Shown here: positions 5,384 through 31,693 of the stretch, one piece after another | Position numbering within the stretch: the first letter of the stretch is position 1 | Layout of the letters: every line of letters starts with the position of its first letter | DNA from: an uncultured Gammaproteobacteria bacterium | GTDB taxonomy: Bacteria; Patescibacteriota; Microgenomatia; UBA10105; UBA927 | NCBI GenBank assembly: GCA_964639945.1 | Contig: CAZXHY010000002.1 | Coordinates: forward strand, 183 to 64,182 | Direction of reading: 5' to 3' | DNA length: 64,000 nt | Made by a program: the position numbers and the translations under genes | The notes under the pieces: generated by a model | The model's database searches: none | Told to the model about the DNA's origin: nothing | What the model saw: only the letters and a program-made list of their open reading frames with translations

Positions 5384-5384
5384 A

Positions 5385-8582: not shown

Positions 8583-8585
8583 AAA

Positions 8586-11424: not shown

Positions 11425-11428
11425 AATG

Positions 11429-14407: not shown

Positions 14408-14442
14408 TCATTTACCACAACTTAATCCATAGTATATCACGA

Positions 14443-15057: not shown

Positions 15058-15063
15058 ATAGCA

Positions 15064-15675
15064 TTATTTAGTAACTCCAATTACAGTTTTTGCAAAAATT
15101 CTATCTCCATTCTTATCGGTAACAAAAATTGGATTTTTAAATTCACCAGATCCATCAGTATCATATGCGATGGTAACTATGACCTGTGTTTTGGGAGGTA
15201 ACGCTGGTTGATCCGTCGTACCGTCAAGGTTAGTCATCGTAATGTTAGGTATCCGGATAGTTGCGTTTGACACAGTACCTTGGGGTAAATAATCAGAAAC
15301 ACCAAAAACCTCATTGCAGTTTTTATCATTGGGGAAATACACCGCAGAGACGACGATCCATCCAGGCTTTCGAAGTCGTGCTTTGTGCACGATAATATCA
15401 AAATAATCATCTCCCATCACCCCCGCATCAGCCACGATATATTCACGCCCCGTTATATATTGGGCCACAACGCCTTTCCACCAATACCACGGTTCCAAAG
15501 GCATAATGACCAAAATAGTCAAAAGCAAGATAATATTCACTAATCCAGAAACAATCCATGGCGTCAACCATCTCACAGTCACAGGGGGAGTATTTTTTGA
15601 AACAGCGCTAACTGCCGGTGAAGCATTTACCAAAGAAGAAGCAACTGGAACCACAGGAGTAGCGGGCGCGTCCAT
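15064..15675 (-). CDS. Membrane-anchored protein with a Pro/Ala/Val-rich N-terminal tail (203 aa); paralog of 14443..15057
   Basis: N-terminus MDAPATPVVPVASS...PPVTVRW, one TM helix, and a C-terminal beta-rich-looking domain. Confidence 0.6.
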   Translation of the reverse strand: MDAPATPVVPVASSLVNASPAVSAVSKNTPPVTVRWLTPWIVSGLVNIILLLTILVIMPLEPWYWWKGVVAQYITGREYIVADAGVMGDDYFDIIVHKARLRKPGWIVVSAVYFPNDKNCNEVFGVSDYLPQGTVSNATIRIPNITMTNLDGTTDQPALPPKTQVIVTIAYDTDGSGEFKNPIFVTDKNGDRIFAKTVIGVTK

Positions 15676-17354: not shown

Positions 17355-18588
17355 TTTCTTTTCTCAAAAAGAGAGACTTCCAAAGATATATAAGGCTTCC
17401 TAACGAAATAATCCCTGCCAACACTACTGTGCTATCTATCCCCTGTCTATGTTCTCCAAAAAACGGAATACCGGTAAATCCATAAAACACAACAAGATTT
17501 AAAATATTTATTGAATCTACAACACGAAGAATAAGATAATTTTTTCGCGTTGGATGGAAAAGGTATAGGAGCAACGCGACAATACTTCCAAGTATGAAGT
17601 GATTTTCATGAACACCAAAACTGAATAAGTAATACACGAGTGCCCCAAGCAGACAACTATGTAATAAATCCTCCTCTCGAGTTTTTTTGTGTGCATGTCT
17701 AAACACTTGCCAGCAGACCAACGCATAGCTCATCGAAAAAATGGTTAACTGCACCCAAGCCCAACTTTGTGTCGGTAACGCGTCGGTAGTGGCAACAACT
17801 CGAACAAAAGGTAAATTTTGTATTACCCACGAGATGTTTAACGCGTACGTTGCAGTATGCAACAGCACGTTTCTCAATGAGAGCAATAATCCCGCTCCCA
17901 CATCTTGGGTGAACGGATACAGCGACAAAACTGAGACCACTAATCCACTTATAAACTCAGCCACTCTCATAATTCGACCCTTTGGGTTTGGCCCAGAAAA
18001 CACATATGTCAACATGATCGGAAGCAATATGATAGGCTGCCACTTTACAAGACAGCTTAAGCCAAACAAATATCCGCTCCAAAAAAGTCTTTTTTTCACC
18101 AAAAACAAAACGCTTAATACCAAAAAAGGAAAAGCTAAAATATCAGTATATGCCAGCCCTTGCGTGCTCAAAACCAGAGAAAACATACTCAAATACAAAA
18201 CAGTATTCTGCCAAATTGTTCGCTTTGCATCCCCCACAGAACGACTAAACCATGAAACAGCAATCAACGTAATGATATAAAACAACAAAATCAAAAGCTT
18301 CATGGAAATGAGAGTTCCAATGACTTGTACAGGAAATACTAATGAAAAAAGATAAAAAATAAGCGCATGTCCAAGAGGAAACTTGGTAAGAATCATGTTG
18401 CTTGGACAAAGATAATTGAGGCAATCAGGAATAAACGAATTCCCACGAATCAAAATGTCTTGAAAAATTACTTCCCAATTTCTCGCATCTACGGTTCCAC
18501 GAGAGGAAAAGAGAGCTATATGTATAGCAATCACCACAAGCACAATCGCCCACATTCCAAATCTCTGTATTGTTGTGTGTAATCTCAT
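17347..18588 (-). CDS. Polytopic integral membrane protein (413 aa), GT-C/DUF2029-like mannosyltransferase suspected
   Basis: About 10 TM helices and an acidic motif after TM1 (VDARNWEV). Overlaps the 3' end of 15759..17354 by 8 nt in convergent orientation. Confidence 0.5.
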   Translation of the reverse strand: MRLHTTIQRFGMWAIVLVVIAIHIALFSSRGTVDARNWEVIFQDILIRGNSFIPDCLNYLCPSNMILTKFPLGHALIFYLFSLVFPVQVIGTLISMKLLILLFYIITLIAVSWFSRSVGDAKRTIWQNTVLYLSMFSLVLSTQGLAYTDILAFPFLVLSVLFLVKKRLFWSGYLFGLSCLVKWQPIILLPIMLTYVFSGPNPKGRIMRVAEFISGLVVSVLSLYPFTQDVGAGLLLSLRNVLLHTATYALNISWVIQNLPFVRVVATTDALPTQSWAWVQLTIFSMSYALVCWQVFRHAHKKTREEDLLHSCLLGALVYYLFSFGVHENHFILGSIVALLLYLFHPTRKNYLILRVVDSINILNLVVFYGFTGIPFFGEHRQGIDSTVVLAGIISLGSLIYLWKSLFLRKEII

Positions 18589-18596: not shown

Positions 18597-20279
18597 TTGT
18601 TTCCTAGCATTAGAATACTTCCTATCTACCACAAAAAGAAGCTGATACAATACAATATTCATACCTTGATCTGTTGTATGCATTCTTCTCCCAAAAAAAC
18701 ACTTCAAATTTGGCACCACCCGTATTTTTTCCATGGAGTATTTATATTTTTTCTCTTCTTAGGATTTGTGATTCGATATGCTTTATTCTATCAAAACTTT
18801 AATATTGAAGACGGTGATATAACAAGCGTATACCATATTGCCAATCACATCATTACCTACCATGAACTTCCGATAATTGGTGAACCAAATAGTATATACA
18901 CACTTCTCCCACATAGTCCGCTCTACTTTTACCTCACTGCGCTAGGACTTTTGATTCACAATAGTATTTTTACACTTGGTGTTATGGGCATGCTACTTCA
19001 ATTTGTGTATATCGTATTACTATATGCATTGGCTTTCGTGCTGTTTAATAAATCTGTCGCGCTACTTACTGGTCTTATACTCGTAGGAAATCAGCAATTT
19101 ATTGCGCAAACACATGTCATGTATCAACGATGGTTTGAACAACCCTTTTTTGCTGCGAGCTATCTATTTCTCGCACTTGCATACACCAAAAAAAATTACG
19201 CATACACGCTCTATGCCGCGATATGCTTTACCATCGCATTGGGAATAGGCCTACATGGATATGCTGCGCTTCCGGTTTTTCTTTTTCTTATAGGTATTAC
19301 CCTACACAAAACACAAGCTTCACTGCGTAAATATATAACCGTTGGGATTATTATGATTGGAATTTGGTCATTATGCTATGCAACTGTGCTTGGATATTTA
19401 ACCAAAAACAATCATTTATTTTTTGCGTTTCAAGAATCTGTATACACCACCTCTATCACAGGCTATCTACGAGAGTTTATTTTAAACATTGGGCGCCTGT
19501 TTTACGGCACACTATATAGCGATCTGCTTCCTCCCATCATTCAAGGAGGGAGCATACTTCTTTTTTTGAGCATTGTTGGTATCGCTGCACTTAGAAAGAA
19601 ACTGCACTACTCACCATACCTTCTTAGTATCATTACCTACATTTTTTCGATCATTCTCATTGCATCATTTCTTCAAAAAGACACCAGAGACTATCACTTT
19701 GTCGCGGCCTTTGGTCCGTTTATCATTCTCCTCTCTGCACTCACACAATCATTTGTACAAAAAGCAAAATCAGATAAAATAAACACTATCATTTGCACAA
19801 TGCTTCTTTTGATCATTGGCGCACCTTCCACAAGATTTTTGCAACAAAATCAACAAAAACAAGATATATATATCGCGCAACTAAACGCAGCGAAATCAAC
19901 AACCCCATACATACAACAACTTCGACAAGAAAACGCGTCTTGGCCAAACCAAACAAGTATTGAGTTATATGGGAATACAATTATCGGTCCATACGACCCA
20001 ACAGATAACATATTTTGGCCCATTTTTGAGAAAATAGCGTACACCAAACTTTCACAAACAACCTCGGGAATAACCACCCCACTCACCCGTACTCCAGACA
20101 ATATTTTTGTCATATGTTCGGACTATAAATCAGTACAGCACGCTGAAGAACGCTGCAATAAAGCCTTTCTCACACGGCATCCAAACTTTGAATCAACTCT
20201 GATTTATACAGGAGACTCAGATGGGAAATATATCCTCTACATAGGGAAACGAAAAAAAGCTCCGACATCGACACAATAG
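18597..20279 (+). CDS. Polytopic membrane glycosyltransferase, GT-C fold (probable true start at MHSSPKK, nt 18678)
   Basis: The EDGD motif (FNIEDGDITSVYHIANH) aligns with the DDGD of 15759..17354. Both also share a C-terminal soluble domain ending in CxxxF..R. Confidence 0.65.
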   Translation: MFPSIRILPIYHKKKLIQYNIHTLICCMHSSPKKTLQIWHHPYFFHGVFIFFLFLGFVIRYALFYQNFNIEDGDITSVYHIANHIITYHELPIIGEPNSIYTLLPHSPLYFYLTALGLLIHNSIFTLGVMGMLLQFVYIVLLYALAFVLFNKSVALLTGLILVGNQQFIAQTHVMYQRWFEQPFFAASYLFLALAYTKKNYAYTLYAAICFTIALGIGLHGYAALPVFLFLIGITLHKTQASLRKYITVGIIMIGIWSLCYATVLGYLTKNNHLFFAFQESVYTTSITGYLREFILNIGRLFYGTLYSDLLPPIIQGGSILLFLSIVGIAALRKKLHYSPYLLSIITYIFSIILIASFLQKDTRDYHFVAAFGPFIILLSALTQSFVQKAKSDKINTIICTMLLLIIGAPSTRFLQQNQQKQDIYIAQLNAAKSTTPYIQQLRQENASWPNQTSIELYGNTIIGPYDPTDNIFWPIFEKIAYTKLSQTTSGITTPLTRTPDNIFVICSDYKSVQHAEERCNKAFLTRHPNFESTLIYTGDSDGKYILYIGKRKKAPTSTQ

Positions 20280-20303
20280 GTTTTACAAAAGGAAGGCGCC
20301 GAC

Positions 20304-21761
20304 CTAGCGAAGCTGAAACAAAACCATCTCCCCTTCTCTATCAAATTCTTGTAATTTTCCACGTACCCCCATGTTCATAATGGCACTTGCATATGCATCA
20401 AATGGGACTTGGTCATGAAACGATCGATTAGATGGCCACCGCACAAATAAAAATTGTGCATGTTCTCCAGTATCTAGCCACCAACAAGGAGTGTTGCACT
20501 GCGGAATATCAGTACGCGAAATCAATTCAGCGACATATATATATTTTCTATGAGAAATATGAGGTACCAAATTAGGCTGTGCGCTAAGTCGCATCTCGGA
20601 AGGTATTCGCTTGATAAAAATATCAGCATCTCTCATCCACTGCTCTTGTATCCAATATCGCTGAGTAAAAACTTCGTACAGAGGAAATCTATATCCAATA
20701 ATTATTCCAACATTAAGGAGTATCAACAGCCCAATAATCACGTCAATTCGTATCTGTATTTTTTTAAACCATTCAAGAGTTTGGAATAATCCAAGCAATA
20801 ATAATGGCGCAAGTACAATACGATGATGAGTAAACGGCTTATCTTTAAAATACGCAGCTGGCCCAGTATTGAAATACTGGGCCATATCCACAACCACCGC
20901 CATAACTGATCCCAAAGAAAATAATGGCAAAAATCCAAATGATATATAGCTATACCACCACGATGACAGTTTATCGTGATTATCAAACAACAATCGAATA
21001 TTTTCCACAGGACTCAATGAGATAACTGGAGTGTATTCATATCCAATAGGCGAAAATCTACCGACGATATACATGGATATGCCGGTAGCAAACACCCCAA
21101 ACGGAATAAACCACCATGCTCTTGCTCGGAATCGATTATCAAAAACATACACGAGTCCCAAACAGGAAAGAGCGATACCCATGTTTTCTTGTGTACCCAA
21201 CAACAAAATCAGGGAAATAACGAAGAAGACTGTCCTTTTAGCCTCAAAAAAATATGCAGTCCACAATAAAAATACCACGCCAATCACTACAGGATGAAAA
21301 TCAGAAAATATCGATTGTTGTATACCAAAAAATACACTGTATATCATCGCAACGCCTAAGGATTGCCAAGAAGAAAGCATTCGTAACCTTGCAAGCTTAT
21401 ACACTGGAATAATCGAAACGCAAATAACCACCGCCTGAAATATAAGTAATGCCCGAACATCATTCCAAATCCAATACAGGGGTGATAAAAGCGGCAATGT
21501 AAGGGTCAAGTGATCACCGAATATATGCCTGCGATACACGGTATTATACATGCCATAAAATCGAGAGTATAACCAAATTGCCTGATCGTATTGGCCCAGA
21601 TCCATTCCTCTTGGAGCGAATCGTCTATATTCACCTAGCGAAATACATGTATAAACCACAGAGAGAATTACTCCCCAAATACCCAATATTTTTAAAGCGA
21701 TATTCTCAGATATATTCGCTCTTGTTTTTTTCACCGACGAGTCGTATTTTTTACTAAACAT
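20304..21761 (-). CDS. Polytopic membrane protein (485 aa), GT-C-like (DUF2079-type) glycosyltransferase suspected
   Basis: About 12 TM helices. First-loop motif MDLGQYDQAIWLYSRF. Lies immediately downstream of a DegT-GT2 pair. Confidence 0.5.
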   Translation of the reverse strand: MFSKKYDSSVKKTRANISENIALKILGIWGVILSVVYTCISLGEYRRFAPRGMDLGQYDQAIWLYSRFYGMYNTVYRRHIFGDHLTLTLPLLSPLYWIWNDVRALLIFQAVVICVSIIPVYKLARLRMLSSWQSLGVAMIYSVFFGIQQSIFSDFHPVVIGVVFLLWTAYFFEAKRTVFFVISLILLLGTQENMGIALSCLGLVYVFDNRFRARAWWFIPFGVFATGISMYIVGRFSPIGYEYTPVISLSPVENIRLLFDNHDKLSSWWYSYISFGFLPLFSLGSVMAVVVDMAQYFNTGPAAYFKDKPFTHHRIVLAPLLLLGLFQTLEWFKKIQIRIDVIIGLLILLNVGIIIGYRFPLYEVFTQRYWIQEQWMRDADIFIKRIPSEMRLSAQPNLVPHISHRKYIYVAELISRTDIPQCNTPCWWLDTGEHAQFLFVRWPSNRSFHDQVPFDAYASAIMNMGVRGKLQEFDREGEMVLFQLR

Positions 21762-21766
21762 ATTTG

Positions 21767-22948
21767 CTAATCACGCTTTGACAGTATGCGTACTATTTTC
21801 ATAATTTCACCGTGCGTTAATATACCTGAAGAAGGTAAATACAATCCCTCACGCATCAACATATCCGATACGGGATACGATTCATTCGTCGTATACATCG
21901 CATACGCGGGCTGAAGATGTATGGGGATAAAAAATCCTCGTGTTTCTATACCATGCTTTGCCAAACGCAATCGCACCTGATCCCTCGTCATTCCATATGT
22001 GGACGCATCAACACGAAATCCAAACACCCAATGAGCATGCATGCTCTCAGGCGGAGTAATTGAAAATATAAACCCTCGTACTTCTTTAAGATATGTCTTA
22101 TACATAGCTGCTAATTTTTTGCGTTTCATAAAAAGCTCTCGAAATCGCTCTGTCTGACCCAGCCCTACAGCGGCCTGCAAGTTTGTCATGTTGTAACTAA
22201 ACCCAACATCGTTATGCCAAAAATGCGTTCTTTTACTAAATGCGTGGTCACGCAAATACGCTACTTTTTCAGCTAACGCCCGATCATTTGTCGTTACCAT
22301 GCCTCCCTCACCTGTCGTGATAATTTTATTGGCATACAAAGAAAATCCCGCAATATCACCAATTGAACCCACTCGTTTTCCTTTATATAAAGCACCATGT
22401 GCCTCAGCAGCATCCTCAATAACTCGAAGTCCGTGCTTCTTTGCTAACAAAAGCACAGGATCCATATCCACAGGGAGTCCATACACATGTACTACCATAA
22501 TAGCTTTTGTTTTCTTGGTTATTTTAGACTCGATCTTGGTCACATCCATATTCCATGTAAATGGATCTGCATCAATAAAGATTGGCTTGGCGCCACAATA
22601 CGTCACTGCATTTGCCGTAGCAATCATCGTGAATGTCGGGACAATAACCTCGTCGCCCTCCCCTATGTCACATGATAAAAGTGCCAAGTGAAGCGCTGAT
22701 GTGCCACTATTCACCGCTACTGCGTATCGGGTCTTTGACACAAGTTTTGCAAACGCCTTTTCAAACCGAGAAATATATGGCCCAGCCGACGATACCCATG
22801 TTGAACGGTATGCATCCAAAAGATAGACTTCTTCCAGTTTTGACAAGTCTGGCGCTGCTACTGAAATTTTATGGATACCTGCGAGTATAGGTTCTGGCAT
22901 CAGCGCAAATGAGTGCGCGTGAGCTACTGTATCAGTTCTATGTTTCAT
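21767..22948 (-). CDS. DegT/DnrJ/EryC1/StrS (ArnB-type) PLP-dependent sugar aminotransferase
   Basis: Has the Lys-containing motif FSLYANKIITTGEGGMVTTND, plus ...DAAEAHGA... and an N-terminal ...SGTSALHLAL... Confidence 0.85.
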   Translation of the reverse strand: MKHRTDTVAHAHSFALMPEPILAGIHKISVAAPDLSKLEEVYLLDAYRSTWVSSAGPYISRFEKAFAKLVSKTRYAVAVNSGTSALHLALLSCDIGEGDEVIVPTFTMIATANAVTYCGAKPIFIDADPFTWNMDVTKIESKITKKTKAIMVVHVYGLPVDMDPVLLLAKKHGLRVIEDAAEAHGALYKGKRVGSIGDIAGFSLYANKIITTGEGGMVTTNDRALAEKVAYLRDHAFSKRTHFWHNDVGFSYNMTNLQAAVGLGQTERFRELFMKRKKLAAMYKTYLKEVRGFIFSITPPESMHAHWVFGFRVDASTYGMTRDQVRLRLAKHGIETRGFFIPIHLQPAYAMYTTNESYPVSDMLMREGLYLPSSGILTHGEIMKIVRILSKRD

Positions 22949-23652
22949 ATCCGTTTCTTTGAAATACTATACGCTTCTTTTATATACGATATACACATCG
23001 ACAGTACACGCGACTTACTCTTTCCATACATTCGTCTTTTATAGTACACGGGCAACTCACATATATAAAATCCGCGTCGATGCGCATAATACACCAGACG
23101 AATATGGTAATCACCGTACCCAAAATATATCTGAGATAACCCAAAGTGAATAACTTCTTTTTTGAATATTGCGTAATATCCACTCGTACAATCTTTTACC
23201 GTAACACGAAGTATGTGGCGTAATACATAATTGATAAGCATGCTGAAATAGTACCTATATCTATCGTGCATACCACCACCCGCTACGAATCGTGAGGCTA
23301 TAACAAGAACGTGTGGTGCACTATACTCTATAAGACTTGGTAATAACAAAGGGTCATGATTTCCGTCGGCATCCATCCCAATGATCAATGTACCTCGCGC
23401 CCTTTCTATGCCAAATCCTATGGCTGTTCCCAGACCTTTTTTATCCACTCGCTCATATACATGAAGTTGTTCATATTTTTTTTGCAATGTAACAAATGTA
23501 TCACGAGAACCATCAGTGCTCATGTCATCGACCACGATGATTTCAAAACTACTATTTTTTAGGATAGTACATATTTGTGGGATCAGAATCTCCAAATTTC
23601 CTCGTTCATTAAACGTCGGCAAAATAATGGAGACGTATGGTTGCCGTTTCAT
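22945..23652 (-). CDS. GT2-family polyprenyl-phosphate sugar transferase (DPM1/GtrB/ArnC-like); start taken at MKRQPYV
   Basis: SIILPTFNERGNLE...VVDDMSTDGSRD...GMDADGNHDP. The ATG overlaps the stop of the upstream methyltransferase (ATGA at 23649-23652). Confidence 0.8.
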   Translation of the reverse strand: MKRQPYVSIILPTFNERGNLEILIPQICTILKNSSFEIIVVDDMSTDGSRDTFVTLQKKYEQLHVYERVDKKGLGTAIGFGIERARGTLIIGMDADGNHDPLLLPSLIEYSAPHVLVIASRFVAGGGMHDRYRYYFSMLINYVLRHILRVTVKDCTSGYYAIFKKEVIHFGLSQIYFGYGDYHIRLVYYAHRRGFYICELPVYYKRRMYGKSKSRVLSMCISYIKEAYSISKKRI

Positions 23653-24380
23653 TTTTTTGCAATCAAAAGAAGTGATGATCCCCAAGGAAATGACACGTAC
23701 GGTAAAAAGCGTGCTTCCAAACTGCACACAGCGTGCAGTATCGTATTTATCATCGGTGATATATGCTGTACGTCACTCACATGCTCCCTCTTATAAAAGA
23801 ATCGGTCATACAAACGTTTACCTATAAAAAATGGGAATGTAAAAAAGAACATATATCGTGAAAATAGCGGGGTCATATGTCCATTGTGTACTAGTGTTGC
23901 AAGTTTTGTAATAGTATATCGTTCACGTGCATGAAACAACCTGTCATGCGGTCCGTAAAGAAATGGCATAGCGCAATCCGTTATGACTAAAAATCCACCT
24001 TTTTTCAACACACGCCTCGCTTCTTTCAAAGCATTGGCGACATGTATATCTTTATGATAAAGCACATCGAAAAAACACACGATATCACATGATCCAGTGG
24101 CCAACCCGGTTCGCACCGCTGTGCCATATCGCAGAGTAATATGCCGCTTCTTAGCCAGCGTTCGACCAACAACATTTGGCTCTATTCCCGTGACCCTGCC
24201 GTATTGGCTCAAAAAATGCTCCATTCCACCCGTTCCAGCTCCAATATCAGCAATAATTGCACCATGCTTCTTCTTGATACCCATGATACAAAAGACAGCA
24301 CCTAAAAATTCTCTTCGCGCCAGAAACCACCAATGAGAAAATTCTACCGTAGACATAGTTACATATTCTTGCTTTTTCAT
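23649..24380 (-). CDS. Class I SAM-dependent methyltransferase (paralog of 25389..26120 and 40620..41387)
   Basis: Gly-rich SAM motif IADIGAGTGGM. Shared N-terminus HWWFLARREF and C-terminus FPWGSSLLLIAKK. Confidence 0.8.
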   Translation of the reverse strand: MKKQEYVTMSTVEFSHWWFLARREFLGAVFCIMGIKKKHGAIIADIGAGTGGMEHFLSQYGRVTGIEPNVVGRTLAKKRHITLRYGTAVRTGLATGSCDIVCFFDVLYHKDIHVANALKEARRVLKKGGFLVITDCAMPFLYGPHDRLFHARERYTITKLATLVHNGHMTPLFSRYMFFFTFPFFIGKRLYDRFFYKREHVSDVQHISPMINTILHAVCSLEARFLPYVSFPWGSSLLLIAKK

Positions 24381-24402
24381 ATAGGGAAAAACTATTCAAT
24401 CA

Positions 24403-25392
24403 CTAGTTATCATGTCTATTCTCTAAAATGATCTTCGCCTGATCATAGCAAATACCTTGATTTATTTGAGATAATGATTTGCATGCGACAGATGCTAGCC
24501 TTCCCACTCCATCTTCCGCAATTACCCCCTGTATAAACCCATACAAACAGCCTGTTGTCGCACGAACGTCTTCTCTCTGACAGGAAAGAATAGCATGTTG
24601 AAAGTCGACAGTACCAGCCAGATATATAGATTCTCCTATATGCGTATAACAACGAAACCGTAAGGACACGTCAGGAAGAGCAGAACACCCCATAAACTCT
24701 TGATCTAGTGTTCCGTATGACATATGCGAATCAAGTGTAGGAACAAAAAACTCCATAAAAACTCCGTCTAGACACTGAGCCTTATATTCCTCGGTGTAAA
24801 TTTTATCGCACAATTGCAGCGCATCAACCATAGATGGTGCTCCAACCTGCGCATACACATGTCCGAAAGCATGATAACAATTTATTGTTTCCATAGTGGA
24901 AGCAGATACGTCTGAAATCCCACATATTTGCTCAATCATAGAAATGGCAGACGGATTTGCCTTAATCTTTTCTAGGATAACTCCATGGACACACCCATCC
25001 CCACACGTTCGCCCTGTGCCGCACGACCTAATCAACGTTGGAATCGATGTCTCACTGCGAGCTACTATTTCGCCGATAATGTGACCTATCGTGTGACAGG
25101 TCGAGATACTACCATTTCTTGAAAAGAACTCTGGTGATTTTGCATGAGTCTCAAGATATTGCATAACAAACGGTAGTGTATGTGGCGATACAATAGGCCA
25201 AAGTCTTTGTCGCAAACAGCCTATGTATGCTTGATTTTGTATATTTTTTGCACACACAGCGAGTGTTTGTTGCAACGATCGAACGAGCACTTTCTCGCTG
25301 AATACATTTCCAAAAAATCCGATCCCTAACCCGATACAGAACACGCAAAGCGTCGTTCCCAACTTCCGAATATTTATTATATTTCTCATCAT
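24403..25392 (-). CDS. Cys/His-rich paralog family member 11 (start taken at MMRNIINI)
   Basis: TM anchor. Carries CHTIGHIIGE, DGCVHGVILE, CYHAFGHVYAQ, CLDGVFMEFF. The ATGATGA overlap with the stop of the upstream methyltransferase was checked in sequence at 25387-25392. Confidence 0.85.
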   Translation of the reverse strand: MMRNIINIRKLGTTLCVFCIGLGIGFFGNVFSEKVLVRSLQQTLAVCAKNIQNQAYIGCLRQRLWPIVSPHTLPFVMQYLETHAKSPEFFSRNGSISTCHTIGHIIGEIVARSETSIPTLIRSCGTGRTCGDGCVHGVILEKIKANPSAISMIEQICGISDVSASTMETINCYHAFGHVYAQVGAPSMVDALQLCDKIYTEEYKAQCLDGVFMEFFVPTLDSHMSYGTLDQEFMGCSALPDVSLRFRCYTHIGESIYLAGTVDFQHAILSCQREDVRATTGCLYGFIQGVIAEDGVGRLASVACKSLSQINQGICYDQAKIILENRHDN

Positions 25393-26120
25393 TTTTGTCC
25401 AATCAAAATAAGTGATGATCCCCATGGGAACCGCACAAACCGGAGTATAAACGCTTCCACAATACACACATATATAAGGACAACGTTTATCAACGAGTGA
25501 ACCATGCGTACATCAGACCGTTCTCGGTTACGCACGACGAGCTTACCACTGAGTCTTTTTGCAACAAATATCGGAAACAATAGGAAAAACAAATAACTAC
25601 TAAAGCGTATCGAAAAACCAGCTTTTTTTACTCGCGCTTCAAGCATGGAAATAGTGTATCGCTCACGACCACCAACAGCGTGGTCATTTGGTCCATACAA
25701 AAACGGCATGGCGCAATCAGTAATGACAACATGTCCTCCCTTTTTTACAACTCTATATGCTTCCCGAAGTGCCATATCATTATCAACCCCCTTATGGTAT
25801 AGCACATCAAATAGACAAACCACATCACACGATGCTGTGCGTAAACCCGTTTTTTCTGCGTTACCATTTCTCAACGTCACACCACGAGATTTTGCTAAAG
25901 AGCGCCCCACTATACTCGGCTCTACACCGATAACCGCTCCATATCGTTGCAAAAAAGCAATCATGCCACCGGTTCCCGCACCAATATCTGCGATTACTGA
26001 GGTACTTTTTGTGAATACACCCATCCTGTCAAAAGCTTGCGCAATAAAATTCCGTCTCGACACAAACCACCAATGAACATCCTCCACTTCAAACATAGCA
26101 ATATACTCATATTTTTTCAT
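25389..26120 (-). CDS. Class I SAM-dependent methyltransferase (tandem paralog of 23649..24380)
   Basis: IADIGAGTGGMIAF; HWWFVSRRNF; ends FPWGSSLILIGQK. About 60-65% identical to 23649..24380 by eye. Confidence 0.8.
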   Translation of the reverse strand: MKKYEYIAMFEVEDVHWWFVSRRNFIAQAFDRMGVFTKSTSVIADIGAGTGGMIAFLQRYGAVIGVEPSIVGRSLAKSRGVTLRNGNAEKTGLRTASCDVVCLFDVLYHKGVDNDMALREAYRVVKKGGHVVITDCAMPFLYGPNDHAVGGRERYTISMLEARVKKAGFSIRFSSYLFFLLFPIFVAKRLSGKLVVRNRERSDVRMVHSLINVVLIYVCIVEAFILRFVRFPWGSSLILIGQK

Positions 26121-26144
26121 ATCTAATTTATTAGCTGTGACTAA

Positions 26145-26870
26145 CTATCGATCTTTTGGCCCTGATTGAGCAATGTGAATCATAGCGAGCATATGTCGCC
26201 AAGCTATACTGGGTAAACGAGCCATAGCATACACTTTGGTGACACCATCACGACGGGCACGATGTCTAACCACGCATTCAGTTACCGTAAATCCATATTG
26301 TTTCACTCGAGCCATAAATTCCCACCAAAACCCTTCGTTGGTGAGTCCTAATATGGGTGTCAATTTCTCGGGTACGCGAGATCGCATAAGTATAAACGAA
26401 CAACTTGGATCATGGACACCCTTAGTAAATAGTGAATAAAAACTCAAATAAAATAGTCGAGAGAGAAATATACGAAGCGCTGAATCCACACGACGCTTCC
26501 TGTTCCCTATCACAACACTGCTTTGTGTACGCCTATTCCATAATTTCCAAAAATCTTTAGGATTGTATTGACCATCAGAATCTATACATAGCACATATGG
26601 AGCAGTAGTCTTTTTTAGAGCTTGTATCATCGCCTGAGAGTATCCCATGCGTCTAGCACCAGTAAGCAACTCTATCGGAAGTTTATGTCGTAAATCATAC
26701 AGTATGGCCTTCGTACGATCAGTGCTACCATCCTCACTTATGATAAATCGCATGGGTACTTTCGGTTGAATTTCGCGGTATAACTCCCATAGGACAATCT
26801 CCAGACATTTTTCTTCGTTATACACTGGAAGGACCACATCGAGCGCAACTACGTTATTCATAATTTTCAA
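26145..26870 (-). CDS. GT2-family glycosyltransferase (DPM1/ArnC-like)
   Basis: LDVVLPVYNEEKCLE...ISEDGSTDRT...IDSDGQYNP. Confidence 0.75.
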   Translation of the reverse strand: MKIMNNVVALDVVLPVYNEEKCLEIVLWELYREIQPKVPMRFIISEDGSTDRTKAILYDLRHKLPIELLTGARRMGYSQAMIQALKKTTAPYVLCIDSDGQYNPKDFWKLWNRRTQSSVVIGNRKRRVDSALRIFLSRLFYLSFYSLFTKGVHDPSCSFILMRSRVPEKLTPILGLTNEGFWWEFMARVKQYGFTVTECVVRHRARRDGVTKVYAMARLPSIAWRHMLAMIHIAQSGPKDR

Positions 26871-26942
26871 TATGGTACAAAACCAACAGCCCTGATTCCA
26901 TCACCCTCATGAGCGAGAACCACCAATGGGTATTTTCTATAT

Positions 26943-27989
26943 TTGCCATGGAGCTATATTCATCAACATTCATTGATTCTTGATATTGAAAAACAGTCAT
27001 ATCGATCTTACAATACGGTCATGATCAGTCTATCAAAATCATCGTTACCCCTACATCTTCTGGCGATACTTATGTTTCTGATAGGAATATACCACGGCAC
27101 CCGCGCAACAGAACAGACGCCATTGAATATATATAAAGCTGAAACAAAAATCATAACAAAATTAATAAAACAAAACGAAATAGAAAAAGCACTTTTCTAC
27201 ATCAATGAGGCAAGCAAAAAATACCCACTATCTATGACTTTGGCCTTGTCATCAAATGCCGGAAAACAAATATATCAAAAAGAAGGTGTACGGGGACTTT
27301 TGCATTGCATAAAAAATGACACACCATCAACGTTTGGTTGTGTGCGCAGTATACTTTTAACAGAAAACTCATCACATCTAGAAGCTCATAGAGAAATACA
27401 TGACATTTGCACCAACAGCATAATTGACCAAGAAAAATCTGGTATGTGTCTTCATATAAGTGGACACGCATTACTAGGATCAAAGGGGTACAAAAAAACC
27501 GATGTCATTCACGCAAGAAATGAGTGTCAAAAAATTATTCCCACTAGTCCAAAAGAAGAGTCTGCGTGCACATTTGGTGTCCTGATGGAATACTTTGTCG
27601 CACGACTTGGGCCCAACGGACTTGGATTACAAAATAACCTAACCAAAATTCCACCTCAGGGATATTCTGAAAATAATCCATACGATATATGTACAGGAGA
27701 ACTTGAAAACGAGGCTTGCTTTAGCATGATACCCTCATGGTGGATATTAACTATCAAGCTTACTCCTGAAAAAGCAATCCAACACTGTCTCCAAATCCCA
27801 TCAAATGATTTAATCCAAACATGCCTCTCCTCATTGACACGAAAATTATTCGAAATAACAAGGAAAGAACAAGGCGCCACACCCGCTACATTAGACGATT
27901 TTTTAAAAATTTGCCTTCTCTATCCGGCAGAACACCGACAACACACATGTACTGAATTTATGGCATCACTTTTACTCAATGAGTATTAG
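26943..27989 (+). CDS. Divergent, more distant member 12 of the Cys/His-rich family (start possibly at MISLSKSS, nt 27021)
   Basis: TM anchor LHLLAILMFLIGIY. Carries FGCVRSILL, CLHISGHALLG, CTFGVLMEYF. Lacks the first H..GE unit. Confidence 0.65.
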   Translation: MPWSYIHQHSLILDIEKQSYRSYNTVMISLSKSSLPLHLLAILMFLIGIYHGTRATEQTPLNIYKAETKIITKLIKQNEIEKALFYINEASKKYPLSMTLALSSNAGKQIYQKEGVRGLLHCIKNDTPSTFGCVRSILLTENSSHLEAHREIHDICTNSIIDQEKSGMCLHISGHALLGSKGYKKTDVIHARNECQKIIPTSPKEESACTFGVLMEYFVARLGPNGLGLQNNLTKIPPQGYSENNPYDICTGELENEACFSMIPSWWILTIKLTPEKAIQHCLQIPSNDLIQTCLSSLTRKLFEITRKEQGATPATLDDFLKICLLYPAEHRQHTCTEFMASLLLNEY

Positions 27990-28009
27990 TGATATATGCT
28001 TGTACACGA

Positions 28010-29059
28010 TTAATTCTTAAAACGAGAAAATACTCGCCCCCAAAGAGCACCAGTAAAGATAAAACAATATAACACTAATCCTACGCCAAACCCTTTTATA
28101 GCAAATAGAAGACCTTTTTCGTGATAAATAAATAGAAGAAATGTCCGCATGAGCACGCCATGAACAAATAATGTAATTGCTAATAATCCGAACACTCTCA
28201 ACACTGGTACAGTGAGCACGCCCATAGTAGCGATAACACTTACAAGGCTCATGGCCGCACTCACAACCACCGCTACTGCTGAAAGAGTCACAATCGCCTC
28301 CTGAAGTGTTGTAGCCACTGGATCGAATTTCTTACGCTTGGCATACAGCTTCGTCCAATAATACGCACGTAAAAAATATTTCCTAGCGATCGGCCAAAAA
28401 TGCTCAAACTCATGCCTCACGCGAACTTGTGGAGCAAAAATAATTGCGTATCGACGAGCTATTCTATACGTAAGCTCTATATCTTCAACCAGTGGTGCTG
28501 GGTACGTTTCGTCAAATCCACCAAGACGCAAGAATACACTTCGCTTTATAGACGCTATCCGCGTAGAAAAAAGGAAATAATATCCACTCTTATCTCGCTC
28601 ATTTATCCAATAACTCCAGTCTCGAAGCGCTTTAAAATTAGGAAAAAAATCTTTGCTTTTTTGTTCTTTCACCCATACTCCTGTAAGCGCTAATACATCA
28701 GGGTCATCACGAAATATTTTAGCAATCTGTGCAAAGGTATCGGGAAACACTTCCACATCACCATCCAAAAACACCACAAAGGTTCCTTTTGCCCTCTCTA
28801 CCCCTCGATTTCTAGCTATCGCTGGCCCCCTATTCGTCTGAAGACGAACAGTTCGTAGCTGAAAGTTTTTCGTTTGTAATTTATTTTTCTGATCCATAAA
28901 CCACAAACCATCAACCGCAAATTCTTTTTTGCTTCCATCATCTACAATCACCACCTCATACGATGGGGCGTTTACACTTTTTTTTATGGAACCCAACAGT
29001 CGCACCAAATGACTTGGACTATTGTAGTAAGGAATAATAATGGAAAGATATGGTTTCAT
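28010..29059 (-). CDS. GT2 polyprenyl-phosphate sugar transferase with a C-terminal double-TM tail (GtrB/ArnC-like)
   Basis: SIIIPYYNSPSHL...VIVDDGS...FLDGDV, then two C-terminal TM helices. There is a 4-nt overlap with the upstream DegT gene. Confidence 0.8.
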   Translation of the reverse strand: MKPYLSIIIPYYNSPSHLVRLLGSIKKSVNAPSYEVVIVDDGSKKEFAVDGLWFMDQKNKLQTKNFQLRTVRLQTNRGPAIARNRGVERAKGTFVVFLDGDVEVFPDTFAQIAKIFRDDPDVLALTGVWVKEQKSKDFFPNFKALRDWSYWINERDKSGYYFLFSTRIASIKRSVFLRLGGFDETYPAPLVEDIELTYRIARRYAIIFAPQVRVRHEFEHFWPIARKYFLRAYYWTKLYAKRKKFDPVATTLQEAIVTLSAVAVVVSAAMSLVSVIATMGVLTVPVLRVFGLLAITLFVHGVLMRTFLLFIYHEKGLLFAIKGFGVGLVLYCFIFTGALWGRVFSRFKN

Positions 29060-30213
29060 GGGTGTTTCAGTGATCGCAATATCTGCTCTGTTGTGCCTAC
29101 CACATAATGAATCTCGCGAGGCTTCATACCTGCGTATATAGGCATCCGCACAAGCGTATTTGCTACATCCTCAGTAACAGGAAGCGATTGACGTGTCGTA
29201 GAAATTTTTCTCCCCATCGGAGAGGTATGAAGCGGAACATAATGCGTAGACACCTCAATACCCTTGCTGCGCATTTTTGACACGAACGCTTTTCGCACTT
29301 CCATAGAATGAAACTTCAGGGCATATATATGCCAATTTGGTTTAGTCATACCTTTTGGCACCACAGGCAACTGAACAATATCTGAAAATTGTTTAAACTT
29401 TTTTGTATACGTCGACGCAATACCTTGCCTTGCTTTTGTAATCTTGTCTATTTGGGCCAATTGCACATTGGTCAGAGATGCAAGTAGGTCTGACAAAAAA
29501 TAACTACTTCCCTCGCCTACCCATTGATATATAGAGACTTTTCCAGCCAGATATGCTGCACGATCCGTACCGATCGCACGAAAAATTTCCATCTTCGCTG
29601 CAAGCCCAGCGAGATTAGTAACAACCGCTCCACCCTCTCCACATGCCACATTTTTCGTACCGTGAAACGAAAAGGCGCCGGCATGACCGTAGGTACCCAG
29701 ACTCTTACCCTTATACTCACTTCCAATACAATGTGCTGCATCCTCGACAAGCCAGAGCTTGTGTTTTTTGGCTATACGCATCAACGCATCAAACCCATCG
29801 CCTGCCATACCAGCGAAATGCACAGTCATAATACCGACTGTTTTTTTTGTTATTCTTCGCTCGACATCTACAGGATCTAAACAGTACGTCTGGCTATCTA
29901 TATCTGCAAACACAGGTATGCCACCACTTCGCAATACGGCAGTTGCAGTAGATGCAAGCGTAAAACTTGGGACTATTACTTCATCCCCTGCGCTTACCTC
30001 AAGGCATGCCACGGCTATTTCCATCGCATGTGTACAATTTGTGACAGGTAACGCATATCGAGCTCCTGTTATTTTCTGTAGCCTTTTTCTCATTTGTGCA
30101 CTCTGTGGTCCATCGGCCGTTCCGCTACCCTGCCGCATGGCAGTAATCACCGCGCGCTCAGCTTTTGGTCCCCACAATGGCTTGTGCAATGGAATTTTCA
30201 TTTTGCCTATCAT
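29056..30213 (-). CDS. DegT/DnrJ/EryC1/StrS (ArnB-type) sugar aminotransferase
   Basis: FSFHGTKNVACGEGGAVVTN; EDAAHCIGS; N-terminal TAMEIAVACL. Confidence 0.85.
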   Translation of the reverse strand: MIGKMKIPLHKPLWGPKAERAVITAMRQGSGTADGPQSAQMRKRLQKITGARYALPVTNCTHAMEIAVACLEVSAGDEVIVPSFTLASTATAVLRSGGIPVFADIDSQTYCLDPVDVERRITKKTVGIMTVHFAGMAGDGFDALMRIAKKHKLWLVEDAAHCIGSEYKGKSLGTYGHAGAFSFHGTKNVACGEGGAVVTNLAGLAAKMEIFRAIGTDRAAYLAGKVSIYQWVGEGSSYFLSDLLASLTNVQLAQIDKITKARQGIASTYTKKFKQFSDIVQLPVVPKGMTKPNWHIYALKFHSMEVRKAFVSKMRSKGIEVSTHYVPLHTSPMGRKISTTRQSLPVTEDVANTLVRMPIYAGMKPREIHYVVGTTEQILRSLKHP

Positions 30214-30362
30214 ACTCGAAGCATAAATGTATTTACAAGATAACTTCTATGGCCATACATAGGCACTCTCTATATCGTTGTATTTTCGTCCAGCGAGATG
30301 CACAACATTTGTGGATACAAACAGAACAAAAAAACTCATCATGTGAAAAACGATATGCCGTA

Positions 30363-30896
30363 TCAAATAGACTTCACGACTTTTGCAGGAACCCCCACAG
30401 ACACTACTCTCTCAGGAATATTTTTTGTGACGACAGCACCTGCGCCGATCACACTTTCACGACCTATCGTCACCCCAGCAAGGATTATTGCGGCAGTTCC
30501 AACGTATACTCCTTTTTGAATCACCACCTTGGATTCTTTCGTAGGAAAATATCGTTGCAATGGATGTTCGGGGTACCCAACATTGATATGCGAAACGACA
30601 CATACTCGATTTGAAAGCGTTACATCATCTTCAAGAAACACACCACCTCGAACATCAATCATGACACCATCCCCTATGTAGCATCGTTTACCAATGCGTA
30701 CTTTACTAAATCCATAGTGATATGCATTTATAAAAACAACATCAAGGATGATTGTGTCATAACCAATCTTCGCTCCAGCTAACCGCAAAAAAAATACTCG
30801 CAGTGGTGGAAGTGACACATGTAAAACCCATGAAAATAATGAGTACCAAAGAAATCGAAACGCGCGACCCAAACCAATAGTTTCAATTATTTTCAT
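30363..30896 (-). CDS. Left-handed beta-helix (hexapeptide-repeat) sugar N-acetyltransferase (PglD/WbpD/NeuD-like)
   Basis: Tandem [LIV]GxxxxI hexapeptides, ending ...IGAGAVVTKNIPERVVSVGVPAKVVKSI. Confidence 0.75.
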   Translation of the reverse strand: MKIIETIGLGRAFRFLWYSLFSWVLHVSLPPLRVFFLRLAGAKIGYDTIILDVVFINAYHYGFSKVRIGKRCYIGDGVMIDVRGGVFLEDDVTLSNRVCVVSHINVGYPEHPLQRYFPTKESKVVIQKGVYVGTAAIILAGVTIGRESVIGAGAVVTKNIPERVVSVGVPAKVVKSI

Positions 30897-30899
30897 ATA

Positions 30900-31622
30900 C
30901 TACCTCTCTTTCGCAAGCAGTGCACGAAAGCTCCATAAGTTTAGCAGATAGTCAGCAGTATCACGAATAATATTCACCGATGACTGTTTGTCAAAACGTC
31001 GCAAAAATAACACCGGCACTTCGCAAATCGTCAACCCTGCTCGTTTGGCGCGGATCATAATCTCCGTATCCCAAAACCATCCAGTATGTACGGTTTTTGC
31101 AAGCAGCGGCAGGATGCTACTGCGTCGGAAAAACTTATACCCCGTCTCAGTGTCCAACCCTCCCGTCCCGACAAGAATGTCGGATAACCATTGATATCCA
31201 CGACTTAATATTTCCCGAATCAATGATCCTGTACTGGAGCGATATATACGCTTCCCTATTGCTACATCTGCCTTTCGCTCAAGTATGAGAGAAACCAACT
31301 GCGGAATATATTCGGGACCAACTTCACAATCTATGTCGATAAACCCTATCACCTCTCCCTTGGCTCTCATAAACCCATCGGCTACCGTCTTCCCTCGACC
31401 ACAATTCGTACGATGAAATACTGCAGAAGTGTGAGGGTATTTTTTACATGCCTTTGCAATTAAATCACGAGTTGCATCGCGACTTTTATCGTCTACAAAT
31501 ATGATCTCATACGAACGCTTACTGTGACGCAAAGTTTCTACAATTCTTTCCACGCTAGAAGCAAAAACATCAACTTCATTAAAACATGCAAGTATGAGAG
31601 AAAAATCAAGACGCTTTGTCAT
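30900..31622 (-). CDS. GT2-family glycosyltransferase (DPM1/ArnC-like)
   Basis: SLILACFNEVD...FVDDKSRDATRD...IDIDCE. Confidence 0.75.
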   Translation of the reverse strand: MTKRLDFSLILACFNEVDVFASSVERIVETLRHSKRSYEIIFVDDKSRDATRDLIAKACKKYPHTSAVFHRTNCGRGKTVADGFMRAKGEVIGFIDIDCEVGPEYIPQLVSLILERKADVAIGKRIYRSSTGSLIREILSRGYQWLSDILVGTGGLDTETGYKFFRRSSILPLLAKTVHTGWFWDTEIMIRAKRAGLTICEVPVLFLRRFDKQSSVNIIRDTADYLLNLWSFRALLAKER

Positions 31623-31693
31623 TTGGAGTATAGTACGATGTTTACATCTTTTTCACAATTGTGGTTTCGCTTAGTGCGAAATAGAATACAACA

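What the first reader, a model, noticed from the sequence alone, without database searches (positions are those of the whole stretch)
23649..26120. Duplicated methyltransferase cassette flanking a Cys/His-rich family gene, with conserved translational-coupling junctions
MT(25389-26120), CH member(24403-25392), MT(23649-24380) and GT2(22945-23652) lie in series on the minus strand. The two MTs are clear paralogs with the same N- and C-termini. Both end in an ATGA-type stop/start overlap with the next gene, checked in sequence at 25387-25392 and 23649-23652. The DNA at the two MT 3' ends is near-identical (23655-23730 vs 25395-25470). As a result the annotated N-terminal extensions of the two downstream genes read alike in the alternative frame (MQFGSTLFTVRVISLGIITSFDCKKM vs MYCGSVYTPVCAVPMGIITYFDWTKMM). 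This points to a recent local duplication that placed a CH-family gene under the same translational coupling as a GT2 gene.
Basis: seen in the sequence. Interest (0 to 1): 0.6.

Follow-up and report, generated by a model that had tools for sequence, protein, structure and literature searches.

The report
Old methyltransferase paralogs in glycosylation operon
Two methyltransferase genes that flank a cysteine-rich membrane-protein gene in a cell-surface glycosylation operon are real but ancient copies, not a recent duplication, and their four-base stop/start overlaps with the next gene are an ordinary feature inherited from this methyltransferase family.

Summary
The layout is as described: GT2b, MT1, CH1, MT2, GT2a, DegT and DUF2079 lie in series on the minus strand. 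ATGA stop/start overlaps sit at 25392-25389 and 23652-23649.

It is not an assembly artefact. Five independent assemblies match the window at 99.98-100% across 3.1-5.3 kb pieces of this stretch; two of them hold both MT genes whole.

The "recent local duplication" reading fails:
- MT1 and MT2 are 54% identical in protein and 58% in DNA.
- Synonymous sites are saturated (dS about 3; four-fold sites match at the chance level).
- The flanks are unrelated.
- A related organism (L009) has one MT, 70% identical to MT2, lying directly between GT2b and GT2a orthologues. So MT1 and MT2 split before that speciation.

Only the last 39 nt are alike (35/39). They encode the family-wide C-terminal beta-strand motif PWGSS...K.

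An MT followed by a GT2 with a 4-nt overlap occurs in 12 of 15 other loci that have a GT2 downstream, across several phyla. The MT2-GT2a junction is therefore ancestral, and MT1 keeps the same ending but feeds into CH1.

The alike "N-terminal extensions" are a by-product of reading the conserved MT end in another frame.

Overall this is ordinary operon architecture in a Microgenomates-like glycosylation island. The unannotated CH family is the more interesting item.

The parts
26145..26870 (-). GT2b, a family-2 glycosyltransferase and the first gene of the minus-strand run. The likely true start is the ATG at 26861, giving 238 aa as in public gene calls.
   Evidence: Pfam PF00535, E = 5.5e-22. 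Called as 238 aa in L004 and L007. An orthologue (61% identity) lies directly upstream of the single MT in L009.
25389..26120 (-). MT1, a class I SAM-dependent methyltransferase of 243 aa. It is the extra, divergent paralog.
   Evidence: Pfam Methyltransf_11, E = 6.6e-15. AF2 pLDDT 94.7 with a class I MTase fold. Foldseek top hits are RebM, AtmM and TM1293. The best foreign homologue is only 55% identical. The family consensus MxxxEYxxM supports the start at 26120 rather than the 235-aa public call.
25389..25392 (-). ATGA stop/start overlap between MT1 and CH1.
   Evidence: Read in sequence. The public gene call starts CH1 here.
25389..25427 (-). Last 39 nt of MT1, matching the last 39 nt of MT2 at 35 of 39 positions. 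It encodes PWGSSLILIGQK*.
   Evidence: This stretch is the final beta-strand (residues 236-242) in the AF2 model.
24403..25392 (-). CH1, 329 aa: an N-terminal membrane anchor followed by an all-alpha, cysteine-rich solenoid. It is one of 12 paralogs in the window.
   Evidence: No Pfam or NCBIfam hit. Paralogs found. AF2 pLDDT 84.5, 16 helices. No PDB match at E <= 1e-3. The family profile hits 7318 cluster representatives.
23649..24380 (-). MT2, a class I SAM-dependent methyltransferase of 243 aa. It is the copy orthologous to the single MT of relatives.
   Evidence: Pfam Methyltransf_11, E = 8.9e-13. 70% identical to the L009 MT (P0008).
23649..23652 (-). ATGA stop/start overlap between MT2 and GT2a, the ancestral junction.
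   Evidence: Read in sequence. The same 4-nt overlap occurs in L009, L011, L014, L015, L021, L037, L039, L043, L055, L059, L080 and L085.
23649..23687 (-). Last 39 nt of MT2, encoding PWGSSLLLIAKK*.
22945..23652 (-). GT2a, a short family-2 glycosyltransferase of 235 aa resembling polyprenyl-phosphate sugar transferases.
   Evidence: Pfam PF00535, E = 4.1e-25. Weak full-length NCBIfam matches to ArnC, AglJ and PpgS models, all far below their cut-offs.
21767..22948 (-). DegT/DnrJ/EryC1-type sugar aminotransferase. It overlaps GT2a by ATGA at 22945-22948.
   Evidence: Pfam PF01041, E = 4.8e-116. Junction.
20304..21761 (-). DUF2079 polytopic membrane protein, the last gene of the run.
   Evidence: Pfam PF09852, E = 2.6e-36.

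Best explanation
The region is part of a large cell-surface glycosylation island of an uncultivated bacterium. Its closest named relatives, at about 52% MT identity, are Gottesmanbacteria (Microgenomates).

Seven genes appear to form one minus-strand operon: GT2b, MT1, CH1, MT2, GT2a, DegT and DUF2079. MT1 and MT2 are old paralogs of a widespread class I SAM methyltransferase family. That family is habitually linked to a short GT2 and a DegT aminotransferase.

In this family the MT gene typically ends ...K-stop, and its TGA shares bases with the start codon of the GT2 gene (ATGA or GTGA). The GT2 is therefore most likely translated by ribosomes that terminate on the MT and restart at once (termination-reinitiation). 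MT2-GT2a is that ancestral pair.

MT1 is a second, long-diverged copy. It arose either by an ancient duplication lost in some relatives or by acquisition. It lies between GT2b and MT2 and has kept the family's C-terminal strand and ATGA ending, but what follows it is a CH-family gene. CH1 is therefore probably produced in step with MT1.

Shown: paralogy, age, the junction sequences, conservation of the junction across taxa, and independence from assembly.

Inferred:
- That the overlaps actually couple translation.
- That the pathway makes a methylated amino-sugar on a polyprenyl-phosphate carrier, which the neighbouring GT-C-like membrane enzymes then transfer.
- That the extra identity of the last ~39 nt reflects the conserved final beta-strand, shared codon usage and perhaps selection on the restart context.
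For: Gene order and junctions.

Paralogy and age:
- 54% aa identity and 58% nt identity.
- dS about 3.0, dN 0.43, and four-fold sites matching in 13 of 44 cases against 28% by chance.
- All nine columns that are invariant across the 87 family members are kept in both copies.
- MT1 and MT2 were never sisters in 200 bootstraps, and MT2's nearest neighbour is P0008.
- L009 has GT2b-MT-ATGA-GT2a with an MT that is MT2-like throughout.

Junction is ancestral: 12 of 15 non-window loci with a GT2 downstream of the MT have a 4-nt overlap. By record title they include Gottesmanbacteria, Levyibacteriota, Saccharibacteria, Rokubacteria, Methylomirabilota and Blastocatellia.

Module: GT2, DegT and MT are linked in dozens of loci in varying order.

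C-terminal motif: it is conserved family-wide with varied codons and forms the last beta-strand in the model.

Not an artefact: five independent assemblies are 99.98-100% identical.

Literature: -4 overlaps are the commonest spacing of unidirectional gene pairs and give strict coupling in 13 of 14 tested pairs. The last 15 nt of the upstream gene suffice (PMC6728339; PMC10666635).
Against: - Translation coupling was not measured.
- No Shine-Dalgarno-like motif lies in the 20 nt before either ATG. Restart efficiency is therefore unknown.
- The family tree is star-like at 50-55% identity. Ancient in-lineage duplication and horizontal acquisition of MT1 cannot be told apart.
- The 35/39 identity at the 3' end exceeds what protein conservation plus codon usage predict for that window. 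A short gene-conversion tract is not excluded.
- The substrate of the MTs is unknown. NCBIfam hits are all far below their cut-offs.
Confidence: 0.8

Rival explanations
1. One reading: a recent local duplication of an MT cassette, including its coupling junction, placed a CH gene under GT2-type coupling.
For: Same length, same termini, same ATGA ending, and 35/39 identity over the last 39 nt.
Against: - 58% nt identity, saturated synonymous sites and flanks at chance level.
- The MT2 orthologue in L009 is much closer to MT2 than MT1 is.
- MT1 and MT2 are not sisters in the tree.
- No similarity after the ATGA.
Confidence: 0.03
2. A short gene-conversion or homogenisation tract has kept the last ~40 nt of MT1 and MT2 alike within this genome, while the rest of the genes diverged.
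For: - In the last 12 codons, 7 of 8 synonymous choices at identical residues are the same, against 51 of 123 gene-wide.
- The expected identity for the last window is 26 of 39 and the observed is 35. None of 5000 simulations reached it.
Against: - The MT2 orthologue in L009, a different genome, also differs from MT2 at only 4 of these 39 nt (hand count on the sequences shown). The tract is therefore conserved between species as well.
- Corrected for all windows, p = 0.055.
- A 39-nt tract with 4 mismatches is short for conversion.
Confidence: 0.12
3. MT1-CH1 is a horizontally acquired two-gene cassette inserted between GT2b and MT2, rather than an in-lineage duplication.
For: - L009 has GT2b directly next to the MT2 orthologue.
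- MT1 has no close relative and is no closer to MT2 than to foreign homologues.
- The CH1 orthologue in L001/L002 lies elsewhere, downstream of DUF2079.
Against: - No donor was found.
- GC content is uniform across the region, 0.39-0.43.
- L009 is a 1.4-kb contig, so MT1-CH1 could sit elsewhere in that genome.
- Loss in the L009 lineage explains the data equally well.
Confidence: 0.3
4. The downstream genes really begin at the upstream GTG codons (23727 and 25467). On this view the conserved alternative-frame peptide is a functional N-terminal extension encoded in overlap with the MT.
For: The alternative frame is open for 120 nt upstream of the ATG in MT1, MT2 and L009, and a GTG lies at -75 in both window copies.
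Against: - At -75 L009 has TTG rather than GTG, a different start codon.
- L015 has a stop immediately upstream, and L011 and L044 have no upstream start.
- The GT2 Pfam domain begins at residue 8 of the ATG-started protein.
- CH1 and its orthologue P0098 start with the usual basic stretch followed by a membrane helix.
- Public gene calls use the ATG.
Confidence: 0.03
5. Assembly artefact: a falsely duplicated or chimeric contig.
For: None beyond the general caution about repeats in metagenome assemblies.
Against: - Five separately assembled contigs from four ENA assemblies and one Logan run match the window at 99.98-100% over 3.1-5.3 kb. L004 and L005 hold both MT genes and CH1 whole, and the others are cut inside an MT gene.
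- The copies are only 58% identical, far too diverged for assemblers to confuse them.
Confidence: 0.01

Closest known systems
Translational coupling by termination-reinitiation at ATGA overlaps (Huber et al. 2019, PMC6728339; Huber et al. 2023, PMC10666635)
   Same: The gene pairs are co-directional and overlap by 4 nt in the ATGA form. The overlap is conserved across orthologous MT-GT2 pairs. The short conserved 3' end of the upstream gene fits the finding that the last 15 nt suffice.
   Different: Coupling was not tested here. No Shine-Dalgarno-like motif precedes the restart codon in this lineage. One of the two junctions leads into a non-enzymatic-looking membrane protein rather than the usual GT2 partner.
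Arn-type lipid-carrier amino-sugar pathway (ArnB aminotransferase, ArnC GT2, ArnT GT-C)
   Same: A DegT/ArnB-like aminotransferase, a short GT2 with weak full-length similarity to the ArnC model, and several PMT_2/GT87/DUF2079 polytopic membrane proteins lie nearby.
   Different: All NCBIfam scores are far below the equivalog cut-offs, for example 43 bits against 529 for ArnC. No ArnA or ArnD equivalents were identified. Methyltransferases are present instead. The organism is a Microgenomates-like bacterium and no lipid A pathway was examined.
Sugar O- and N-methyltransferases of the class I SAM family (RebM, AtmM, TylM1/DesVI-like N,N-dimethyltransferases)
   Same: Same fold. RebM and AtmM are the top Foldseek hits (E about 1e-12). 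The profile also matches dTDP-3-amino-3,6-dideoxyglucose N,N-dimethyltransferases at E about 2e-6.
   Different: Sequence identity is 15-22%. This family has its own N-terminal HWWF motif and a two-helix insertion (residues 182-225) before the last strand. The substrate is unknown.
Helical-repeat (HEAT/ARM/alphaRep-like) proteins, for the CH family
   Same: The predicted structure is an all-alpha solenoid of paired helices. Only generic alpha-solenoid hits were returned.
   Different: No significant sequence or fold match (best E = 4e-3, TM <= 0.36). The family has an N-terminal membrane anchor and 10 invariant cysteines, which suggests an extracytoplasmic, disulfide- or metal-stabilised domain.

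Membership tests
Class I SAM-dependent methyltransferase (Pfam Methyltransf_11 / Methyltransf_25) | Pfam domain score above the gathering threshold | tested here: met
   MT1 scores 56 bits and MT2 49.1 bits against a cut-off of 21.2.
Class I SAM-dependent methyltransferase (Pfam Methyltransf_11 / Methyltransf_25) | Glycine-rich SAM-binding motif I after beta-strand 1 | tested here: met
   DIGAGTGG is present in both copies. G47, G49 and T50 are invariant in 87 family members.
Class I SAM-dependent methyltransferase (Pfam Methyltransf_11 / Methyltransf_25) | Rossmann-like seven-stranded fold | tested here: met
   AF2 pLDDT 94.7. Foldseek probability 1.00 to RebM, AtmM, TM1293 and others.
Class I SAM-dependent methyltransferase (Pfam Methyltransf_11 / Methyltransf_25) | Methyl transfer to a defined substrate | not testable with these tools
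   This needs an enzyme assay. No NCBIfam equivalog cut-off was reached.
Recent segmental (tandem) duplication | Extended nucleotide identity, including synonymous sites | tested here: not met
   58% nt identity, third positions 42%, dS about 3.0, four-fold sites 13/44.
Recent segmental (tandem) duplication | Similarity extends into the non-coding or neighbouring flanks | tested here: not met
   20% identity upstream and 30% downstream over 100 nt.
Recent segmental (tandem) duplication | The copies are each other's closest relatives | tested here: not met
   P0008 (L009) is 70% identical to MT2, against 54% between MT1 and MT2. Sister grouping in 0 of 200 bootstraps.
Termination-reinitiation coupled gene pair | Co-directional genes with a -4 (ATGA) or -1 overlap | tested here: met
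   Both junctions were read in sequence.
Termination-reinitiation coupled gene pair | The overlap is conserved among orthologous pairs | tested here: met
   For MT-GT2, 12 of 15 other loci with a GT2 downstream have a 4-nt overlap. For MT1-CH1 no orthologous pair exists outside this population, so only the MT-GT2 junction is shown to be conserved.
Termination-reinitiation coupled gene pair | Downstream translation depends on upstream translation | not testable with these tools
   This requires a two-reporter assay with a premature stop, as in PMC10666635.
Polyprenyl-phosphate sugar transferase GT2 (ArnC / DPM1 / PpgS type), for GT2a | GT2 catalytic domain | tested here: met
   PF00535, 89.1 bits.
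Polyprenyl-phosphate sugar transferase GT2 (ArnC / DPM1 / PpgS type), for GT2a | Score above the equivalog cut-off of a characterised member | tested here: not met
   ArnC model 43 bits against 529. PpgS model 28.6 bits against 370. GT2a may work like these enzymes but is not filed as a member.

The most novel reading that the evidence does not exclude
MT1 and CH1 may form a functional pair, as MT2 and GT2a probably do. An old methyltransferase paralog would have kept its restart junction but swapped partner. On this reading a member of the large, unannotated, membrane-anchored cysteine-rich alpha-solenoid family (7318 cluster representatives, no Pfam model) is made in fixed proportion to a sugar methyltransferase. 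It might act as scaffold, acceptor or escort for a methylated surface glycan in Microgenomates-like bacteria. That would give the first functional handle on this family.
Probability: 0.15. Interest if true: 0.55.

Novelty: new member of a known kind. Interest (0 to 1): 0.22.

Why it matters
As stated, the finding matters little. Diverged paralogs in a glycosylation operon and ATGA overlaps are both commonplace.

Two things have some value:
- The MT-GT2 pair with a 4-nt overlap is conserved across several phyla. Such overlaps are enriched among subunits of heteromeric complexes (PMC10666635), so this hints that the methyltransferase and the GT2 may act as a stoichiometric pair.
- The CH gene belongs to a very large family with no Pfam or NCBIfam model. 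It recurs next to this glycosylation module in three lineages (the window, L001/L002 and L021). That genomic link is a starting point for working out what the family does.

Tried and rejected
- Biopython distance and tree building timed out. It was replaced by a numpy neighbour-joining routine with Kimura distances.
- Word-indexed homologue searches for CH1 and for the CH alignment found almost nothing, 2 and 4 proteins. The exhaustive profile search was needed to see the family.
- Cluster look-ups gave no organism names or accessions for the window's proteins or for CH relatives. The taxon is inferred only from the best MT homologues.
- A chimeric origin of the L009 MT, by unequal crossover between MT1 and MT2 deleting CH1, was tested and rejected. 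L009 is MT2-like in every 30-residue window.
- The promoter and terminator scan of 20000-31800 found nothing above shuffled expectation.
- A literature search for DUF2079 plus glycosyltransferase found nothing.
- A search for cysteine-rich families of the Candidate Phyla Radiation found only general statements about non-cytoplasmic hypothetical families enriched in Microgenomates.
Full report
**1. What is in the sequence**

The minus strand carries the following genes in transcription order:

| Gene | Coordinates | Identity |
|---|---|---|
| GT2b | 26145-26870 | Glycos_transf_2 |
| MT1 | 25389-26120 | Methyltransf_11 |
| CH1 | 24403-25392 | no family |
| MT2 | 23649-24380 | Methyltransf_11 |
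| GT2a | 22945-23652 | Glycos_transf_2 |
| DegT | 21767-22948 | DegT-type aminotransferase |
| DUF2079 | 20304-21761 | DUF2079 membrane protein |

- Reading the sequence confirms both ATGA junctions. At MT1-CH1 the sequence is ...CAA AAA TGA, with the CH1 ATG at 25392-25390. At MT2-GT2a it is ...AAA AAA TGA, with the GT2a ATG at 23652-23650.
- GT2a-DegT also overlaps by ATGA.
- The other gaps are 5-24 nt. The promoter and terminator scan finds nothing above shuffled expectation. A single operon is therefore the simplest reading, though this is inferred.

**2. How alike the two MT genes are**

- The proteins are both 243 aa and align without gaps at 54% identity.
- In codon register the DNA is 58% identical, and third positions are 42% identical.
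- Nei-Gojobori dS is about 3.0, which is saturated, and dN is 0.43. Four-fold degenerate sites at identical residues match in 13 of 44 cases, against 28% expected from base composition.
- The 100 nt upstream and downstream are 20% and 30% identical, which is chance level.
- The repeat finder reports one 82-nt direct repeat at the two 3' ends, at 73% identity. Only the final 39 nt are strongly alike, at 35 of 39.

**3. Whether the 3'-end similarity is more than protein conservation**

- I kept both protein sequences and redrew every codon from the codon usage of this window. The last 39-nt window is then expected to share 26 identities.
- None of 5000 simulations reached 35 at that window. However, 5.5% reached 35 in some window of the gene.
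- Across the family the C-terminal motif [FY]PWGSS..L.A.K is conserved with varied codons.
- In the AlphaFold model of MT1 (pLDDT 94.7) this stretch is the last beta-strand of the class I fold, residues 236-242.
- The MT2 orthologue in another organism (L009) differs from MT2 at only 4 of these 39 nt, the same number as MT1. This is a hand count on the sequences shown.

I therefore attribute the similarity mainly to a conserved structural strand plus shared codon usage. There may be some added constraint from the restart site. A short gene-conversion tract is not excluded.

**4. Age and origin of the duplication**

- The MT family has many members at 50-55% identity to MT1, so MT2 is no closer to MT1 than foreign proteins are.
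- In a neighbour-joining analysis of 87 sequences, MT1 and MT2 were never exclusive sisters in 200 bootstraps. MT2's nearest neighbour is P0008.
- P0008 lies on L009, whose order is GT2b orthologue (61%), MT (70% to MT2, 50% to MT1), ATGA, GT2a orthologue (69%).
- The L009 MT is MT2-like in every 30-residue window. Informative sites split 60 to 11, so it is not an MT1/MT2 crossover product.
- MT1 and MT2 therefore diverged before the window organism and the L009 organism split.
- Relative to L009 the window carries an extra MT1-CH1 unit between GT2b and MT2.
- In L001/L002 the CH1 orthologue (46%) lies downstream of DUF2079, so the CH gene has moved within the cluster.
- None of the 80 loci from the genome scan has two MT copies.
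- An ancient duplication with later loss and an acquisition of MT1 cannot be told apart with these data.

**5. The junction is ancestral for MT-GT2**

- Among the loci from the scan of 185,579 species representatives, and the small contig L009, 15 outside this population have a GT2 downstream of the MT.
- Twelve of those 15 overlap by 4 nt (ATGA or GTGA). By record title they include Gottesmanbacteria, Levyibacteriota, Saccharibacteria, Rokubacteria, Methylomirabilota and Blastocatellia.
- In a Chloroflexota-type group the same three genes occur in the order GT2-DegT-MT.
- MT, GT2 and DegT therefore form a conserved module, and the MT-GT2 overlap is an old feature.
- The closest loci, L011-L013, share the backbone GT2c-MT-GT2a. 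In the window CH2 (plus strand), GT2b, MT1 and CH1 lie between GT2c and MT2.

**6. How common such overlaps are**

- In this window 8 of 35 same-strand adjacent gene pairs have a start codon in a 4-nt overlap with the upstream stop. One of them follows the third, distant MT paralog at 40620-41387.
- Published work shows -4 overlaps are the commonest spacing of unidirectional gene pairs across 49 phyla. They gave strict coupling in 13 of 14 tested pairs, the last 15 nt of the upstream gene suffice, and they are enriched among subunits of heteromeric complexes (PMC6728339; PMC10666635).

Two ATGA junctions are therefore unremarkable in themselves.

**7. The 'N-terminal extensions'**

- The GTG-started ORFs (23727 and 25467) come from taking the first start codon after a stop.
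- Public gene calls start at the ATG inside ATGA, giving 329 and 235 aa.
- The GT2 domain begins at residue 8 of the ATG-started GT2a.
- CH1 and its orthologue begin with a basic stretch followed by a membrane helix.
- In other family members the alternative frame upstream of the restart codon is closed or lacks a start codon, as in L015, L011 and L044.

The similar peptides are the conserved MT end read in another frame.

**8. Assembly**

- Five contigs from four ENA assemblies and one Logan run match the window at 99.98-100% over 3.1-5.3 kb. L004 and L005 hold both MT genes and CH1 whole, and the others are cut inside an MT gene.
- At 58% identity the two copies could not be confused by an assembler in any case.

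**9. What the genes probably do (inferred)**

- MT1's fold matches small-molecule and sugar methyltransferases, with RebM and AtmM as top hits. The family profile also matches amino-sugar N,N-dimethyltransferases weakly.
- GT2a is a short GT2 with weak full-length similarity to the ArnC, AglJ and PpgS models, all far below their cut-offs.
- The window is a glycosylation island. It holds several PMT_2, GT87 and DUF2079 polytopic membrane proteins, further GT2 and DegT genes, and DUF7282 proteins.
- The most likely pathway has four steps. A nucleotide amino-sugar is made by DegT. It is methylated by the MT. The GT2 loads it onto a polyprenyl phosphate. The GT-C-like enzymes transfer it outside the membrane.
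- None of these steps was tested.

**10. The CH family**

- CH1 has no Pfam or NCBIfam match, nor do its 12 aligned relatives even at E <= 1.
- The window holds 12 paralogs, ten of them in the run 1035-13667.
- A profile of 13 members hits 7318 cluster representatives at E <= 1e-3 and 1985 at E <= 1e-30. Some proteins carry up to 14 copies.
- The model of CH1 (pLDDT 84.5) is a membrane-anchored all-alpha solenoid. It has no significant PDB match.
- Ten cysteines are invariant in the alignment.
- CH genes adjoin the MT-GT2-DegT module in the window, in L001/L002 and in L021, but not in the other 79 loci of the scan.

**11. Verdict**

- The structural observation is right.
- 'Near-identical DNA' holds only for about 40 nt.
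- 'Recent duplication' is refuted.
- The junction is an inherited, ordinary form of gene coupling.
- The one mildly interesting point is that an old MT paralog with the family's restart junction now leads into a CH-family gene instead of a GT2.

Noticed in passing
window 1035-13667 (-), plus 24403-25392 (-) and 26943-27989 (+): There are twelve paralogs of the cysteine/histidine-rich CH family, ten of them in one minus-strand run. No Pfam or NCBIfam model matches. A profile of the family hits 7318 cluster representatives, including proteins with up to 14 tandem copies (P0099, 3580 aa). The predicted structure is a membrane-anchored alpha-solenoid with 10 invariant cysteines.
   Followed up: partly
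window 9772-11424 (-): A 550-aa polytopic membrane protein with no Pfam hit sits inside the CH array, overlapping its downstream CH neighbour by 14 nt. It resembles the GT-C-like genes elsewhere in the window in size and hydrophobicity.
   Followed up: no
window 40620-41387 (-): This is a third, distant methyltransferase paralog (E = 7e-22 to MT1, Methyltransf_23). It also ends in an ATGA overlap, with a 705-aa downstream gene at 38506-40623.
   Followed up: partly
window 25389-26120 (-): The public gene call for MT1 is 235 aa and starts at Met9. The family consensus MxxxEYxxMxxVExxHWWF and the MT2 and L009 orthologues support the upstream ATG at 26120, giving 243 aa. The public start therefore looks too short.
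   Followed up: partly
L001 3254-4246 and L002 1428-2420: The only close CH1 orthologue (46%) lies downstream of DUF2079 and upstream of an orthologue of window gene 17347-18588 (GT87-like, 70%). In the window a plus-strand PMT_2 gene (18597-20279) occupies that position instead. The cluster has been rearranged.
   Followed up: partly
L021 6769-8696 (-): Two CH-family genes lie on the opposite strand immediately after an MT-ATGA-GT2a-DegT module in a different MAG. This is an independent co-location of the CH family with this module.
   Followed up: no
window 54448-63924 (-): A single ORF of 3158 aa was not examined.
   Followed up: no
window 13694-15675 (-): Three small genes of 203-237 aa each have an N-terminal membrane helix. 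Two of them give DUF7282 hits, one of which is below Pfam's gathering cut-off. DUF7282 genes also flank DUF2079 in the related cluster L090.
   Followed up: no
window 1-64000: GC skew is negative in every 2-kb bin (-0.08 to -0.24) and no tRNA gene is present in 64 kb. Most of the window is taken up by glycosylation and membrane-protein genes.
   Followed up: no
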